Made by a program: the position numbers and the translations under genes
Notes under the pieces: model-generated
What the model saw: the letters and a program-made list of their open reading frames with translations, nothing else
Told to the model about the DNA's origin: nothing
Database searches by the model: none
In this document: piece after piece, positions 29,551 to 35,579 of the stretch
Numbering within the stretch: the stretch's first letter is position 1
Layout of the letters: each line of letters opens with the position of its first letter
DNA from: a virus
IMG/VR virus record: IMGVR_UViG_3300022700_000177
Coordinates: 19,929 to 83,928 of that record
Length of the DNA stretch: 64,000 bases
Reading direction: 5' to 3' (one strand)

Positions 29551-30810
29551 ATGGAAAAAAAGAAAGTATTATTCATAGGGGTTCACCCATCAACTGCTAC
29601 CGGAAACGGTAACATGATGATGGGAATTGCATCTCAAGTTGATAGAGAAAAGTATGAACCCTATTTCCTAACCAATACCTTTAATATGGATTTTGAAAGG
29701 TATTTAGAAGACAAAGATATCATTGATAACATCATTCCAGCAAGAAACACTGATAACGAAGATTATTGGGGTAAGCAAACGGTTGTTAGTTTAATGGGCA
29801 CTGGTTACTTCGATTTGTGTTTCTTTGTCGGTGCTGACATATGGATTTATATTGACATTTTTGATCATATTGAAAAACTCAAAAATACGGAAGGATTTGA
29901 ATGGGGTTTCTTATTCCCGTATGATCTCCCCTATGCAAGAGAAGATTGGATGCAATGGATTAATACTATACCTTTTCCATATGTTTATTCCGAATTTGGT
30001 TATAATATTATAAAGGATTATGTAAAAAGAATACAATATTTCAGACCGCCAAATGGAAATAAGGAAATTCATACAACTGAATATGAAACTTTTAATAGAG
30101 ACCACTTAAAGAAAAATTTCTTTCAAGATATTGATGTAGAAAAAACTGTTATATTGGGGACAATTGGTCCTAATCAGAAAAGAAAGAACATAGCAAGGCA
30201 GATGAAAGGCTTTGGCATTGCCAGAAAAAAACTGAAAGAAAAGTTTCCAGAATTGGAGATGATTTACTATATCCATGCGTCACCAACAGGATATATTGAT
30301 ATTAACAGGTTTGCAAAAGATTATGATTTGACTGGCGGTATTATTAGAACAAAGCCTTCTGATATAAAAGTGGATGAAAAGACAATGAAAAAGCTCATTT
30401 GTTCCTTTGACTGTTTATTGAATTGTTCTTTTCAAGAAGGCTTGTCATGGACAGTATTGGAGGCAATGCTTTGTAAAACACCTGTAATTGCATCAAAATC
30501 AACTGGGCATATTGAATTGCTTGAAGATGGAAATGGTATCTTAGTCACTCCGTACGAAACTGACTTCCTAAACTTAATGACAAAAAGCGGACCAAATCCC
30601 ATTGAAATAAAAGCTTGTGATCAACACTCTATTGCAAATGCCATTGAACAGTTTGTAACCAATTACGAACAAGTTCCGGCGTTGAAAGAAAAAGCATATA
30701 ATAAAGCTATTGAATGGTTATCTGGAGTAAATGATATAAACAAAATACTTGATGATATGGTTAATAGAATTGAAAAGAGTAAAAACGAAGTATGGGGGAT
30801 GGAGCTGTGA
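29551..30810 (+). CDS. GT4-like glycosyltransferase
   Basis: HP...TGNG, NQKRKN, EGLSWTVLEAMLCKTPVI. Confidence 0.85.
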   Translation: MEKKKVLFIGVHPSTATGNGNMMMGIASQVDREKYEPYFLTNTFNMDFERYLEDKDIIDNIIPARNTDNEDYWGKQTVVSLMGTGYFDLCFFVGADIWIYIDIFDHIEKLKNTEGFEWGFLFPYDLPYAREDWMQWINTIPFPYVYSEFGYNIIKDYVKRIQYFRPPNGNKEIHTTEYETFNRDHLKKNFFQDIDVEKTVILGTIGPNQKRKNIARQMKGFGIARKKLKEKFPELEMIYYIHASPTGYIDINRFAKDYDLTGGIIRTKPSDIKVDEKTMKKLICSFDCLLNCSFQEGLSWTVLEAMLCKTPVIASKSTGHIELLEDGNGILVTPYETDFLNLMTKSGPNPIEIKACDQHSIANAIEQFVTNYEQVPALKEKAYNKAIEWLSGVNDINKILDDMVNRIEKSKNEVWGMEL

Positions 30811-31931
30811 GTAAAATAGGAATAAGATGGAAGGGGCCTTCCCTTGATCCAAGTGGTTATGGGGAGGCCACAAGGAATTATATAAAAGGGTGTTATTATT
30901 CCGGACTCTTTGATATTCAAGTAGAACCTTGGAATTTTGAAAAAAAAGACGGAAGTTTCTATGGCGATAGTGGTATTTTAGTAGAGAAACTAAAAGAAAA
31001 TAAAGTAGATCATTCAGTTGTTTTTGTCCACTGCGTACCAAATCAGATTTCAGGTTTCATTGAGCCTGGAAAACTTAACGTAGGATACTCTACTTGGGAA
31101 ACTGATAGGATTCCAAAGCATTGGGTTAAAAACATCAACAACCATTTTGATCTTCAATTAGTACCATCAGAATATAACAAACAGGTATATATAAATAGTG
31201 GAGTTACGGTTCCTATTGAAGTCCTGCCTCATTGTATTCATATGGCAGAAATAGACTCTATACCTGCTGCCGATTTAGAAATGTATGCAAACAAATTCAA
31301 ATTTATTTCGGTATTTCAATGGACAGAAAGAAAGAACCCAATAGGGTTATTGAAAGCCTATTTTGCTGAATTTTGGGAACACAATGATGTGGTTTTAATA
31401 CTAAAAAGCTATAGAAGCAACGCCTCACAAATTGAGCAAGACAAAATTATTAATGACATCAAGCATTTAAAAAATGATATGGATTTACCTAAGTACCCTC
31501 CTATATATTTCATAGGGAGTTTAATTCCACATAGAAATGTATTTGAACTTTACAAAGCAAGTGACTGTTTTGTACTACCTTCACGTTCAGAGGGCTTTGG
31601 TATCCCTATTCTTGAAGCAATGTCCTGTAGTTTACCTATTGTCACAACTAATTATGGAGGAGGTAAAGAGTTATTATATGAGAGTGCCTCAAATGTGGGT
31701 TATTTTGAAACACCCGTATGTGGAATGCCTTGGATTCCTTATTATGATTCAACACAGCTTTGGGCAGAACCAAATATTGCAGATTTAAGATTTCACATGC
31801 ACAAAATGTACATTTCAAATAAGGAATCAATTGAAAAAGAAAGTAAATGGTCTTATAAACGAGCTTGGAATTTTGATATATCAACTATCTCAAAAAAATT
31901 CTATGAAATACTGAAAAAATATGGAGCTTAA
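30807..31931 (+). CDS. GT4-like glycosyltransferase
   Basis: SGYG.A.R, WETD, ERKN, PSRSEGFGIPILEAM. Confidence 0.9.
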   Translation: MSKIGIRWKGPSLDPSGYGEATRNYIKGCYYSGLFDIQVEPWNFEKKDGSFYGDSGILVEKLKENKVDHSVVFVHCVPNQISGFIEPGKLNVGYSTWETDRIPKHWVKNINNHFDLQLVPSEYNKQVYINSGVTVPIEVLPHCIHMAEIDSIPAADLEMYANKFKFISVFQWTERKNPIGLLKAYFAEFWEHNDVVLILKSYRSNASQIEQDKIINDIKHLKNDMDLPKYPPIYFIGSLIPHRNVFELYKASDCFVLPSRSEGFGIPILEAMSCSLPIVTTNYGGGKELLYESASNVGYFETPVCGMPWIPYYDSTQLWAEPNIADLRFHMHKMYISNKESIEKESKWSYKRAWNFDISTISKKFYEILKKYGA

Positions 31932-34238: not shown

Positions 34239-34767
34239 TGTGTTTGTTGTAGGTACTGGAAGATGTGGTACTACTACTTTCATCCAGGCTTGTAACCATA
34301 TAGTAAACTTTACTGCTGGACATGAAACTCGGATTACCAAATTTGGAGAGTCTCGATTTAAATATTCAAGGAATCACATTGAAGCTGATAACAGATTAAG
34401 CTGGATGCTGCCTGATTTAATAGCCAGGTTTCCTGACTCTGTCCTTGTTCATTTAAGACGTGATGTAGATGATGTCGCAAAGAGCTATTCAAAGCGCAGA
34501 GGACCTCGTTCCCTTGCTGACAATTTGATTCGTGGCATATTATATCAAGCAGATGTTGAACAGAACAGACAAGAAGTATTGAAATTTGGAATGGCAGTTT
34601 TGAGAAACAATGTGGATTACATATTAAAAAGGGTAAATAATAAGGTTTATTTCATTGATATTGAATACCCCAATAACTCTTTTATAGACTTTTGGAATTA
34701 TATAGGTGCAAAGGGCGACATTATTGCCGCCCTTGATTGTTTCAATTATCATTTTAATCAATCATAA
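34228..34767 (+). CDS. sulfotransferase-like P-loop protein
   Basis: VGTGRCGTTT, HE, VHLRRD..DVAKSY. Confidence 0.7.
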   Translation: MISNVFVVGTGRCGTTTFIQACNHIVNFTAGHETRITKFGESRFKYSRNHIEADNRLSWMLPDLIARFPDSVLVHLRRDVDDVAKSYSKRRGPRSLADNLIRGILYQADVEQNRQEVLKFGMAVLRNNVDYILKRVNNKVYFIDIEYPNNSFIDFWNYIGAKGDIIAALDCFNYHFNQS

Positions 34768-35579
34768 AAGGTTTGATAAATGTCAAGCATTGTCTTTTCA
34801 GGAAACCTACATCTAAGGAAGTTTGTTACGTTTGAGTTTCCATGAACAATAACATCAGATACCCTACCTAAAACAAAGGTGTCAAGTAATACTTCATATG
34901 CGAGTTGAAGCTTGACACCTTTTTTATTTTCCTCTTTCTGTCTATGGGGCTCACCGTTCTTTGGTCTGATACATTCAAGATAATAAACCCTATCTATGCC
35001 ATACTTTTTTGTGAACATATCAATGACAAGTTTTGCATCTGTAGCAAGAAAAATAGGTCTGGTTTTGGGGAATTTATCTATGTATTCACAAAAAGCTTTG
35101 AATGGTAGATTATTTTGTAGCTCATAATGATTTCTCATCCACGCAGTCCCACCATGTAACCTCAATGGACCCCTACAATGCACACCAATAAAAGTTTCAT
35201 TAGGAAGTCTGTTTTGTGTTTTCTGTATTAAATCCTTAACATTTGGTTTTATTTTGATGAATTTTTTTGCCCCTATTTTTCCAAAAGGTTGTTTTAGGGG
35301 TAAAAGTATTTGTTCTGCTGGAGGTTTTCCTGGCTTAATCACCTTGCGTCTATCCATTGAACCCGACATTCTTGGTAATTTAGAAAAATCAATATTTTGT
35401 TTGAATGGTTGTTCAAAGAACTCTGTCCAAACATTAATAAGACCGTTACCATAGTTGTTTCTTGATTCCCAAACTACCTTGACACCGACATTTTGCATTG
35501 CACATTGATAACACCTATCAATTACTTGGTTTACCATTGCGAAAAATCCAGGACCGTTTTTTAATCTGAACTCATGCAT
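34758..35579 (-). CDS. NodZ/FUT8 (GT23)-like GDP-sugar glycosyltransferase
   Basis: GFFA, IGVHCRG, IFLATD, D..VL....V...NSNV fucosyltransferase motifs I-III. Confidence 0.8.
   Translation of the reverse strand: MHEFRLKNGPGFFAMVNQVIDRCYQCAMQNVGVKVVWESRNNYGNGLINVWTEFFEQPFKQNIDFSKLPRMSGSMDRRKVIKPGKPPAEQILLPLKQPFGKIGAKKFIKIKPNVKDLIQKTQNRLPNETFIGVHCRGPLRLHGGTAWMRNHYELQNNLPFKAFCEYIDKFPKTRPIFLATDAKLVIDMFTKKYGIDRVYYLECIRPKNGEPHRQKEENKKGVKLQLAYEVLLDTFVLGRVSDVIVHGNSNVTNFLRCRFPEKTMLDIYQTFYD

What the first reader, a model, noticed from the sequence alone, without database searches (positions are those of the whole stretch)
29551..35579. Candidate phage-encoded sulfated glycan system: 4 glycosyltransferases, a GDP-mannose 3,5-epimerase and 2 sulfotransferases at the junction with the virion operon
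Seen: seven tightly packed genes encoding two GT4-like enzymes, a GT-A enzyme with GT13-like EDD and SR..G..G motifs, a GDP-mannose 3,5-epimerase, two sulfotransferases and a NodZ/FUT8-like GT. The NodZ-like gene is on the opposite strand and is the last gene of the structural operon, starting just after a tail protein gene. Known: this epimerase makes GDP-L-galactose, which differs from GDP-L-fucose (the GT23 donor) only at C6. Sulfotransferases use PAPS. Virion glycosylation has been shown in a few phages. Inference: the phage builds a sulfated, L-galactose-containing glycan on its own virion proteins, or possibly on the host surface. I know of no characterised sulfated phage glycan coat.
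Basis: partly seen in the sequence, partly recalled or inferred. Interest (0 to 1): 0.85.

Follow-up and report, generated by a model that had tools for sequence, protein, structure and literature searches.

The report
Phage cassette for a sulfated glycan
An uncultured marine phage carries seven tightly packed genes for soluble enzymes that could build a sulfated sugar chain containing L-galactose; all seven enzyme assignments hold up, but the sequence cannot show whether the chain goes on the phage particle, the host surface or the DNA.

Summary

- Two are GT4 glycosyltransferases.
- One is a GT-A enzyme whose nearest fold is GnT-I.
- One is a true GDP-mannose 3,5-epimerase (GME): 333 bits to plant GME, catalytic residues kept.
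- Two are compact sulfotransferases (ST).
- One is a NodZ/FUT8-type transferase. It is the last gene of the tail operon and starts 11 nt after a fibre-like gene.

The donor logic (GME makes GDP-L-galactose for the NodZ-like enzyme, then sulfation) gained support. NodZ-like, GME and both sulfotransferase types lie together again in an unrelated 195-kb phage. GME and NodZ-like genes also sit side by side in an Opitutales genome.

The acceptor is unresolved. No enzyme is membrane-bound, and the 84-kb record has no export machinery and no PAPS or GDP-mannose synthesis genes. My estimates are virion proteins 0.4, host envelope glycans 0.3 and DNA 0.1.

The proposed SGE sequon is only weakly supported and is not enriched in the second phage.

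GME/NodZ/GT clusters are already published for cyanophages, and phage sulfotransferases are noted there as function-unknown. This scan has also flagged similar sulfated-glycan islands on other phage DNA. I class this as a compact, testable new variant of a known kind.

The parts
29551..30810 (+). g1, GT4-family (GT-B) glycosyltransferase, 419 aa, soluble
   Evidence: Pfam Glyco_trans_1_4 42 bits and Glycos_transf_1 39 bits. PHROG 2170 covers residues 24-423. No TM segment.
30792..31931 (+). g2, GT4-family glycosyltransferase, 379 aa, soluble
   Evidence: Pfam Glycos_transf_1 66 bits. PHROG 2170 at 105 bits.
31921..32754 (+). g3, GT-A glycosyltransferase of a small GnT-I/MGAT2-like family, 277 aa (or 273 aa from the ATG at 31933)
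   Evidence: No Pfam or NCBIfam hit. AF2 pLDDT 92.3. Foldseek top hit is GnT-I 1foa, E 1.7e-9, TM 0.62. The family profile hits MGAT2 at 2e-6, POMGNT1 at 3e-5 and GnT-I at 3e-3. R16, D43, E115-D116-D117, Y238-I239-G240 and G243 are conserved.
32756..33721 (+). g4, GDP-mannose 3,5-epimerase (GME), 321 aa
   Evidence: 333 bits, E 2.4e-98, to A. thaliana GME 2c59; the next family scores 107 bits. SSACIYPE (Cys145), YGWEK (Tyr174/Lys178) and GGREKAPAA (Lys217) align. It is 56-60% identical in protein to the epimerases of cyanophages P-TIM68 and S-SCSM1.
33714..34238 (+). g5, compact sulfotransferase of the Sulfotransfer_2 (carbohydrate sulfotransferase) family, 174 aa
   Evidence: Pfam PF03567 32.9 bits against a cut-off of 22, covering profile positions 4-251. 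PHROG 3347. HIPRTGGSS and FIRNPYTRALS fit the 5'-PSB and 3'-PB PAPS-binding motifs (read from the sequence; the motifs are from my own knowledge).
34228..34767 (+). g6, compact sulfotransferase (Sulfotransfer_3/4-like), 179 aa
   Evidence: Pfam Sulfotransfer_4 23.7 bits (cut-off 22.8) and Sulfotransfer_3 26 bits (cut-off 27). Atlas structure neighbours are sulfotransferase clusters with TM 0.72-0.92, many of them viral. GTGRCGTTT and HLRRDVDDVAKS fit the PAPS motifs. L004 has a 43%-identical copy next to a g3-like gene.
34758..35579 (-). g7, NodZ/FUT8-type (GT23-like) transferase, 273 aa, last gene of the virion/tail operon
   Evidence: Family profile against PDB: NodZ E 3.4e-23, FUT8 2e-14. 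36 of 60 homologues carry Pfam NodZ. AF2 pLDDT 89.8; Foldseek ranks NodZ/FUT8 first and POFUT1 next. H134, R136, D181 and S249 are invariant. It starts 11 nt after the fibre gene stop, behind an AGGGG ribosome-binding site.
35591..36904 (-). Fibre-like tail protein (DUF2341 + LamG), 437 aa. Its C-terminus holds four h-SGE-h motifs, three of them as tandem pentapeptides. It is a candidate acceptor only.
   Evidence: Pfam Laminin_G_3 33 bits and DUF2341 25 bits. Motifs at residues 396, 401, 406 and 419. A related strain has 15 extra bases inside this repeat.
25775..26611 (+). Context gene: a divergent thymidylate-synthase-fold protein upstream of RNR, dUTPase and the cassette. It is the basis of the DNA-modification rival.
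   Evidence: Pfam Thymidylat_synt only 35.6 bits over the C-terminal half. Best PDB ThyA hit is 28 bits. The catalytic Cys and the Asn of RS.DL..G.P.N are kept. PHROG thymidylate synthase 54 bits.

Best explanation
The cassette is one soluble, cytoplasmic glycan-building and tailoring pathway that runs on host GDP-mannose, UDP-sugars and PAPS.

Proposed steps:
2. The two GT4 enzymes and the GnT-I-like GT-A enzyme lay down a short chain. By family analogy this would be mannose-type residues plus a beta-linked HexNAc.
3. The NodZ/FUT8-like enzyme caps the chain with the L-sugar, as fucosyltransferases do with GDP-L-fucose.
4. g5 and g6 add sulfate from PAPS.

Shown: the families, the catalytic motifs, solubility, and the recurrent clustering of the NodZ-like, GME and two sulfotransferase genes.

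Inferred: the donors, the order of steps and the acceptor.

My best guess for the acceptor is the phage's own virion proteins, first of all the fibre-like protein encoded directly upstream of g7. That would give the particle a negatively charged sugar coat.

Confidence splits into two parts: about 0.7 that this is one pathway making a sulfated L-galactose-type glycan, and about 0.4 that the acceptor is the virion.
For: - Families and motifs are established.
- All seven proteins lack TM segments.
- No ORF in the 83.9-kb record has three or more TM-like segments, so there is no Wzx, Wzy, polyprenyl-phosphate transferase or permease.
- The record has no APS kinase, CysD or NDP-sugar pyrophosphorylase, so donors come from the host.
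- The same four families (NodZ-like 29% identity, g6-type ST 31%, GME 44%, g5-type ST 26%) lie within 10 kb on one strand of an unrelated complete 195-kb phage.
- GT4, GME and NodZ-like genes are adjacent in an Opitutales MAG.
- Fused homologues of g7 carry FkbM methyltransferase, capsule-synthesis (NKWYS), GT47 and GT32-like domains, which means sugar acceptors.
- For the virion as target: g7 is the terminal gene of the tail operon, 11 nt after the fibre gene, and this junction is kept in a diverged strain.
- h-SGE-h occurs 10-11 times in 32 minus-strand proteins against 0.5 expected, and not once in 36 plus-strand proteins. No tripeptide reached that count in 300 shuffles.
- Virion glycosylation by phage GTs is established in mycobacteriophages (Freeman et al. 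2023, as cited in PMC12363180).
Against: - No chemistry has been measured.
- Six of the seven genes are co-oriented and contiguous with RNR, dUTPase and the replication genes, not with virion genes.
- Phage L004, which shares the helicase, polymerase and clamp loader, has the g3-like/g6-like pair between helicase and polymerase.
- The SGE signal is post hoc. Plain SGE is only the sixth most enriched tripeptide. At the level of proteins the family-wise p is about 0.02. Four of the copies are one tandem repeat. The motif may simply be a beta-turn of beta-sandwich tail domains.
- The 195-kb phage with the same module shows no SGE enrichment: 1 seen, 1.0 expected.
- The distant relative G002 has no cassette at the tail/non-tail junction.
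- The record is only about 77% complete.
Confidence: 0.4

Rival explanations
1. The enzymes remodel a host envelope glycan during infection, either an LPS O-unit or a capsule or exopolysaccharide precursor on undecaprenyl phosphate. They would act at the cytoplasmic face and use the host's own initiation, flipping and polymerisation machinery. The effect would be superinfection exclusion, or keeping progeny from re-adsorbing to infected cells or their debris.
For: - This is the published reading of cyanophage clusters that hold GME, NodZ, O-FucT and several GTs (PMC9602691; PMC12801897).
- Homologues of g7 are fused to capsule and LPS-type domains and occur in bacterial genomes.
- Sulfotransfer_2 enzymes act on carbohydrates.
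- Sulfated polysaccharides are common in marine bacteria (my own knowledge).
- Six genes sit in the early/middle-looking operon.
- O-antigen GTs are typically soluble or peripheral, so the lack of TM segments does not argue against this.
Against: - The phage has no initiating transferase, flippase or polymerase.
- I found no integrase in the ORFs I scanned (not all ORFs were scanned). If the phage is lytic, surface remodelling would have to pay off within one lytic cycle.
- A transferase gene expressed with the tail genes (g7) is hard to explain for a surface change that needs time to be exported.
- This function has never been shown experimentally for any marine phage cluster.
Confidence: 0.3
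2. The cassette hypermodifies the phage DNA. The divergent thymidylate-synthase-like enzyme would make a 5-hydroxymethyl-pyrimidine nucleotide. After replication the transferases would hang a glycan on it, possibly sulfated, to block host nucleases.
For: - The gene order is TS-like, RNR, dUTPase, then the cassette.
- The TS-like protein is far from true ThyA (28-36 bits) but keeps the catalytic Cys and the uracil-type Asn.
- The polymerase has an N-terminal UDG-like domain; among its nearest matches, at 21-25% identity, are Bacillus phage SP-10 and many Salmonella phage records. SP-10 and Kuttervirus phages have hypermodified thymidine (my own knowledge).
- Phage clusters of GT-A or GT-B enzymes with a sugar epimerase next to a ThyS or 5mYOX gene do glycosylate DNA, with mono- to trisaccharides (bioRxiv 10.1101/2023.12.21.572611).
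- L004 keeps the GT-A/sulfotransferase pair inside its replication module.
Against: - The NodZ/GME/sulfotransferase module recurs in a complete 195-kb phage that has no thymidylate-synthase-family gene.
- The module also recurs in cyanophage-type clusters.
- The g7 family is tied to sugar acceptors.
- The nearest fold of g3 is GnT-I; TarP, the relative of known DNA GT-A enzymes, ranks only 45th.
- A GDP-mannose 3,5-epimerase is not the UDP-sugar epimerase type of the published DNA clusters.
- The phage already has a 7-deazaguanine system.
- Sulfated DNA glycans are unknown.
Confidence: 0.1
3. The seven genes are not one pathway. Two or more unrelated accessory modules (for example a GT4 pair, the GT-A/sulfotransferase pair, and the GME/NodZ pair) merely accumulated in the plastic zone between the replication and tail modules and serve different targets.
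For: - L004 carries only the g3/g6 pair.
- L008 carries GT4 genes plus a g3-like gene with methyltransferases and no sulfotransferase.
- G001 shares four families but not the GT4 genes or g3.
- Junctions next to fibre genes are common insertion zones in phages (my own knowledge).
Against: - The genes overlap by 8-19 nt or are spaced by at most 2 nt, with no promoter or terminator signal above background between them.
- In this phage g3 and g6 are interleaved with GME and g5.
- The two sulfotransferase types, GME and NodZ travel together in G001.
Confidence: 0.1

Closest known systems
Cyanophage 'cell wall synthesis and modification' clusters, e.g. Synechococcus phage S-SCSM1 ORF113-135 (PMC9602691), S-SCSM2R and P-SSM2 (PMC12801897)
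   Same: They are marine phage clusters of soluble enzymes that include a GDP-mannose 3,5-epimerase (56% identical to g4), an annotated NodZ fucosyltransferase and several GTs. Their function is untested.
   Different: Those clusters sit in 190-245-kb T4-like myoviruses. They also carry GMD and GDP-fucose synthase, methyltransferases and 2OG oxygenases, and no sulfotransferase is annotated in the stretch I viewed. Here the set is cut down to seven genes, adds two sulfotransferases, lacks a fucose pathway (so L-galactose or L-gulose is the only phage-made donor), and splits across the replication/tail junction.
Mycobacteriophage virion glycosylation (Che8 gp110, Corndog gp38, Myrna; Freeman et al. 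2023, cited in PMC12363180 and PMC12619734)
   Same: Phage-encoded soluble glycosyltransferases glycosylate structural proteins in the cytoplasm. This is the only demonstrated phage precedent for the favoured reading.
   Different: Those glycans sit at the C-termini of the capsid and tail-tube subunits. No sulfation, GME or GT23-type enzyme is described there. No sequence relationship was tested here because the paper is not held.
Rhizobial Nod-factor tailoring: NodZ fucosylation followed by sulfation (NoeE, NodH)
   Same: A GT23 NodZ enzyme adds an L-6-deoxyhexose to GlcNAc and a PAPS-dependent sulfotransferase then sulfates the glycan. This is the same two-step logic (my own knowledge; the NodZ structure match is).
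   Different: The acceptor there is a lipo-chitooligosaccharide signal and the donor is GDP-fucose. g7 is only 12-14% identical to NodZ in the structural alignments and falls below the Pfam threshold on its own.
Phage DNA-glycan hypermodification clusters (Pyle et al., bioRxiv 10.1101/2023.12.21.572611)
   Same: They combine GT-A and GT-B enzymes, sometimes sequential, with an adjacent sugar epimerase and a ThyS or 5mYOX gene in the DNA-metabolism module.
   Different: The known DNA GT-A enzymes resemble JGT and TarP. No GT23 enzyme, no GDP-mannose 3,5-epimerase and no sulfotransferase has been reported in them.

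Membership tests
GDP-mannose 3,5-epimerase (GME, EC 5.1.3.18; extended SDR) | Sequence much closer to characterised GME than to any other SDR epimerase or dehydratase | tested here: met
   333 bits to A. 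thaliana GME 2c59 and 328 bits to 8sg0; the next family scores 107 bits.
GDP-mannose 3,5-epimerase (GME, EC 5.1.3.18; extended SDR) | GxxGxxG NAD site, the YxxxK pair, and the Cys145/Lys217 acid/base pair | tested here: met
   GAGGFIGSH, YGWEK, SSACIYPE and GGREKAPAA align column for column with 2c59. The residue roles are from my own knowledge of the A. thaliana structure.
GDP-mannose 3,5-epimerase (GME, EC 5.1.3.18; extended SDR) | [quoted passage not shown] | not testable with these tools
   Needs an enzyme assay.
GT23 (NodZ / FUT8 alpha-1,6-fucosyltransferases) | Significant match to the family model | tested here: inconclusive
   g7 alone gives no Pfam or PDB sequence hit. Its family profile hits NodZ at E 3.4e-23 and FUT8 at 2e-14, and 36 of 60 homologues pass Pfam NodZ.
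GT23 (NodZ / FUT8 alpha-1,6-fucosyltransferases) | Fold of the NodZ/FUT8 catalytic domain | tested here: met
   AF2 pLDDT 89.8. Foldseek ranks 1-27 are all NodZ or FUT8 (E 3e-7 to 3e-5, TM 0.46-0.58), followed by POFUT1.
GT23 (NodZ / FUT8 alpha-1,6-fucosyltransferases) | Fucosyltransferase motifs: H-x-R (GDP-binding Arg), (C/A)-T-D, and the C-terminal Ser motif | tested here: met
   H134, R136, D181 and S249 are invariant in 60 sequences. The profile aligns viGlHiRG to NodZ IIGVHVRH and llctDs to FLCTDS, and GnS to the FUT8 FSS.
GT23 (NodZ / FUT8 alpha-1,6-fucosyltransferases) | Donor GDP-L-fucose and an alpha-1,6 link to GlcNAc | not testable with these tools
   The only clue is context: GME is the only donor-making enzyme in the cassette. 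GME and NodZ-like genes co-occur in G001, L031 and S-SCSM1.
GT13 (GnT-I / POMGNT1) | GT-A fold with an EDD metal-binding motif | tested here: met
   Foldseek top hit 1foa, E 1.7e-9. E115-D116-D117 are conserved.
GT13 (GnT-I / POMGNT1) | Passes the family sequence model (Pfam GNT-I) | tested here: not met
   No Pfam hit. The profile against PDB gives MGAT2 (GT16) 2e-6, POMGNT1 3e-5 and GnT-I only 3e-3. g3 is best called a GT13/GT16-like GT-A of its own small family, not a GT13 member.
PAPS-dependent sulfotransferases | Passes a family model | tested here: met
   g5 matches Sulfotransfer_2 at 32.9 bits against a cut-off of 22. g6 matches Sulfotransfer_4 at 23.7 against 22.8, which is borderline, and Sulfotransfer_3 at 26 against 27. 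Atlas structure neighbours of g6 are sulfotransferases.
PAPS-dependent sulfotransferases | 5'-phosphosulfate loop and 3'-phosphate motif | tested here: met
   g5 has PRTGGSS and RNPYTRALS. g6 has GRCGTTT and RRDVDDVAKS (sequences). The motif definitions are from my own knowledge and no structural check was made.
Phage virion-glycosylation systems | Glycan found on virion proteins | not testable with these tools
   The phage is uncultured and no proteomic data are available.
Phage virion-glycosylation systems | A recurrent acceptor motif confined to virion proteins and linked to the enzymes | tested here: inconclusive
   h-SGE-h occurs 10-11 times against 0.5 expected in this phage. At the level of proteins the family-wise p is about 0.02. 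The motif is not enriched in G001, which has the same module.
Phage DNA-glycan hypermodification clusters | A hydroxymethyl-pyrimidine-forming enzyme (ThyS homologue or 5mYOX) near the GTs | tested here: inconclusive
   A divergent TS-fold gene lies 3 kb upstream, but whether it is a synthase or a hydroxymethylase is unknown. G001 has the shared module without any TS-family gene.

The most novel reading that the evidence does not exclude
The cassette decorates the phage's DNA rather than a protein or polysaccharide. A hydroxymethyl-pyrimidine made by the divergent thymidylate-synthase-like enzyme would carry an oligosaccharide that is then sulfated. The result would be a polyanionic, sulfated DNA glycan, sitting beside the phage's 7-deazaguanine base.
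Probability: 0.1. Interest if true: 0.95.

Novelty: new variant of a known kind. Interest (0 to 1): 0.58.

Why it matters
Papers list phage sulfotransferases as function-unknown (PMC10580990), and no phage glycan has been shown to be sulfated in the papers I could search. This cassette is the smallest coherent version I saw. It has seven soluble enzymes in 6 kb and needs only GDP-mannose, UDP-sugars and PAPS, all of which E. coli makes.

That makes three open questions directly testable:
- What do marine phage glycan islands build?
- Do GT23-type enzymes use GDP-L-galactose?
- Where does the product go?

If the product coats virions, it would add a charged, algal-polysaccharide-like surface to marine phage particles. 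That could bear on adsorption, on aggregation with marine gels and on grazing.

Tried and rejected
- tblastn of g3, g5, g6 and g7 against 50,697 cultured phage records gave no match.
- Single-protein scans of IMG/VR for g7 and g3 found nothing.
- The 60-sequence alignment A1 was too diverse for a pattern scan. The smaller A4 and A3 worked.
- PDB sequence searches for g3, g5, g6 and g7 alone were empty.
- The promoter and terminator scan of 28.5-37.5 kb gave fewer promoter-like and no more terminator-like sites than shuffles, so transcription units rest on gene order only.
- SGE as a sequon: plain SGE is not an outlier among tripeptides, and it is not enriched in G001.
- G002 shares only three baseplate genes, so conservation of the motif could not be tested.
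- ORF 21778-22647 looked GT-A-like by eye, but hhalign against the g3 family gives a probability of 0.2%, so I dropped it.
- The Gp23 and Tet_JBP family searches of G001 had no ringing control and say nothing.
- No RNA holder was listed for the stretch.
- I had taken 61897-63960 for the terminase. It has no phage hit and is a DAL-repeat protein.
- The host could not be named. Only the epimerase is cyanophage-like; the capsid protein is not and the polymerase is only distantly like phages of other hosts.
- Freeman et al. 2023 is not held.

Full report
**What the window is.** The window is bases 19929-83928 of an 83,928-base IMG/VR virus record, estimated at 77% complete.
- The plus strand up to 34.8 kb carries 7-deazaguanine genes (QueD, QueE, FolE, a DpdA-like transglycosylase).
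- It also carries a UDG-fused family A polymerase, a clamp loader, an SSB, RecA-like, FEN and SbcCD-like genes.
- These are followed by a divergent thymidylate-synthase-fold gene, a ribonucleotide reductase and a dUTPase.
- From 34.8 kb on, the minus strand carries virion genes: a capsid protein, a 1745-aa tape-measure-like protein, baseplate proteins and a LamG/DUF2341 fibre-like protein.
- The GC skew flips at the same point.
- The finding lies exactly at this convergence.

**Observation.** All seven genes are real and tightly packed.
- g1 starts 1 nt after the dUTPase stop.
- Successive plus-strand genes overlap by 8-19 nt or are at most 2 nt apart.
- The true starts of g5 and g6 are 33714 and 34228.
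- g6 and g7 converge with a 10-nt overlap.
- g7 starts 11 nt after the fibre gene stop, behind an AGGGG ribosome-binding site.
- A 2288-base contig from a marine-sediment metagenome, a diverged relative (about 13% of aligned letters differ), bridges the g6 end, g7 and the fibre gene end. The junction is genuine.

**The enzymes.**
- g1 and g2 are GT4 glycosyltransferases.
- g4 is a GDP-mannose 3,5-epimerase. It scores 333 bits to the Arabidopsis enzyme against 107 bits for the next SDR family, and the NAD site, the YxxxK pair and the Cys/Lys acid-base pair all align.
- g3 has no Pfam, NCBIfam or PDB sequence hit. Its small family (15 sequences) gives a confident model (pLDDT 92.3). The best structural match is GnT-I; POMGNT1 and MGAT2 rank 8 and 9. 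It fails the GT13 sequence model, so I call it GT13/GT16-like.
- g7 alone matches nothing. A full HMMER scan found 223 relatives. Their profile hits NodZ at 3.4e-23 and FUT8 at 2e-14. 36 of 60 carry Pfam NodZ. The model (pLDDT 89.8) matches NodZ and FUT8 first, then POFUT1. The H-x-R, T-D and Ser motifs are invariant.
- g5 passes Sulfotransfer_2.
- g6 is borderline on Sulfotransfer_3 and 4, but it has both PAPS motifs and sulfotransferase structure neighbours, many of them viral.

**Is it one pathway?** The strongest new evidence is a conserved neighbourhood.
- In a complete 195,453-base phage with terminal repeats (G001, GC 52%; no other window protein matched the 21-kb stretch compared), a NodZ-like gene, a GT-A gene, a g6-type sulfotransferase, a GME and a g5-type Sulfotransfer_2 gene lie within 10 kb on one strand.
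- An Opitutales MAG has GT4, GME and NodZ-like genes side by side.
- Cyanophage S-SCSM1 has GME and an annotated NodZ gene in one glycan cluster.
- Longer homologues of g7 are fused to FkbM methyltransferase, capsule-synthesis, GT47 and GT32-like domains.
- The NodZ-like enzyme therefore works on sugars, together with GME and the two sulfotransferase types.
- This cassette has no GDP-fucose pathway, so GDP-L-galactose (or GDP-L-gulose) is the only donor the phage makes itself. It remains an inference.

**What the phage lacks.**
- None of the seven proteins has a membrane segment.
- No ORF in the whole record has three or more such segments.
- There is no APS kinase, CysD-type or NDP-sugar pyrophosphorylase gene.
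- The pathway is cytoplasmic, depends on host GDP-mannose and PAPS, and has no initiation or export machinery of its own.

**Where does the glycan go?** Three targets fit, and I could not decide between them.

*Virion proteins (0.4).*
- g7 closes the tail operon directly behind a fibre-like gene whose last 40 residues contain four hydrophobic-SGE-hydrophobic motifs.
- The motif occurs 10-11 times in the 32 minus-strand proteins against 0.5 expected, and not once in the 36 plus-strand proteins.
- The test is post hoc, however. Plain SGE is only the sixth most enriched tripeptide.
- Counting proteins rather than copies gives a family-wise p of about 0.02.
- The repeats look like turns in a beta-sandwich domain.
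- G001, with the same module, has no enrichment.

*Host envelope glycans (0.3).*
- This is the published, untested reading of the cyanophage clusters (PMC9602691, PMC12801897).
- It fits the placement of six genes in the non-structural operon.

*DNA (0.1).*
- The cassette follows a thymidylate-synthase-fold gene that is far from true ThyA yet keeps the catalytic Cys and the uracil-type Asn.
- The polymerase carries an N-terminal UDG-like domain and distantly resembles, among others, that of Bacillus phage SP-10, a phage with hypermodified thymidine.
- Phage GT/epimerase/ThyS clusters are known to glycosylate DNA.
- A phage with a related replication module keeps the g3/g6 pair between helicase and polymerase.
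- Against it: G001 has the module but no TS-family gene.
- Also against it: the g7 family points to sugar acceptors, and g3 resembles GnT-I rather than the JGT/TarP type.

**Comparison with what is known.**
- GME + NodZ + GT clusters are already annotated in cyanomyoviruses (PMC9602691).
- Sulfotransferases in marine phages are mentioned as function-unknown (PMC10580990).
- Virion glycosylation is proven only in mycobacteriophages (cited in PMC12363180).
- My searches found no paper on a sulfated phage glycan.
- Earlier notes of this scan describe larger sulfated-glycan islands in at least seven other phage genomes. I did not verify those notes. They mean the kind has been seen before in this scan.
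- This case is distinct in four ways: its small size, the absence of a fucose pathway, its split across the replication/tail junction, and its coexistence with DNA-modification genes.

**Verdict.** This is a new, compact variant of a known but uncharacterised kind of phage glycan cluster. Interest is moderate to high because it is small enough to reconstitute.

Noticed in passing
L017 (G001:C1:172293-193099, reversed), about 9947-20054 of the locus: A complete 195-kb phage with terminal repeats carries NodZ-like, GT-A (Nucleotid_trans), Sulfotransfer_3-like, GME and Sulfotransfer_2 genes on one strand. It has no thymidylate-synthase-family gene anywhere in its genome.
   Followed up: partly
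window 35671-35679 (inside the fibre gene 35591-36904): A related strain in a marine-sediment metagenome has 15 extra bases (five codons) inside the tandem [IV]SGE[FLY] pentapeptide repeats. This suggests copy-number variation of the repeat. The inserted letters could not be read as a sequence.
   Followed up: no
window 25775-26611 and 12455-15094: A very divergent thymidylate-synthase-fold gene sits with a polymerase that has an N-terminal UDG-like domain. The polymerase is nearest (21-25% identity) to polymerases of SP-10-type Bacillus phages and of many Salmonella and Vibrio phages. The phage may carry a hydroxymethyl-pyrimidine-derived base as well as 7-deazaguanine.
   Followed up: partly
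window 4749-10914: QueD, QueE, GTP cyclohydrolase I and a DpdA-like transglycosylase are confirmed by Pfam and PHROGs. A weak GT-B gene (7647-8825, Glycos_transf_1 at 23.6 bits, below the cut-off) lies among them.
   Followed up: partly
L004 4161-5499: A phage sharing the helicase, polymerase and clamp loader (26-37% identity) has the g3-like (33%) and g6-like (43%) genes as an adjacent pair between helicase and polymerase. Its polymerase gene holds an intein with an HNH nuclease.
   Followed up: partly
window 61897-63960: The 687-aa protein at the window's end has 12 'DAL' motifs at 14-70-residue spacing (most 14-29) and no match in cultured phages. It is not a recognisable terminase.
   Followed up: no
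window 34758-34767: The two converging operons end in genes whose stop codons overlap by 10 nt, with no terminator-like hairpin between them. Transcription from each side must run into the other.
   Followed up: no
L008 1009-10904: Another viral contig joins three GT4 genes and a g3-like GT-A with two methyltransferases, a PfkB sugar kinase and a UDP-glucose dehydrogenase. The block lies between a PD-(D/E)XK nuclease and an M23-peptidase protein.
   Followed up: no
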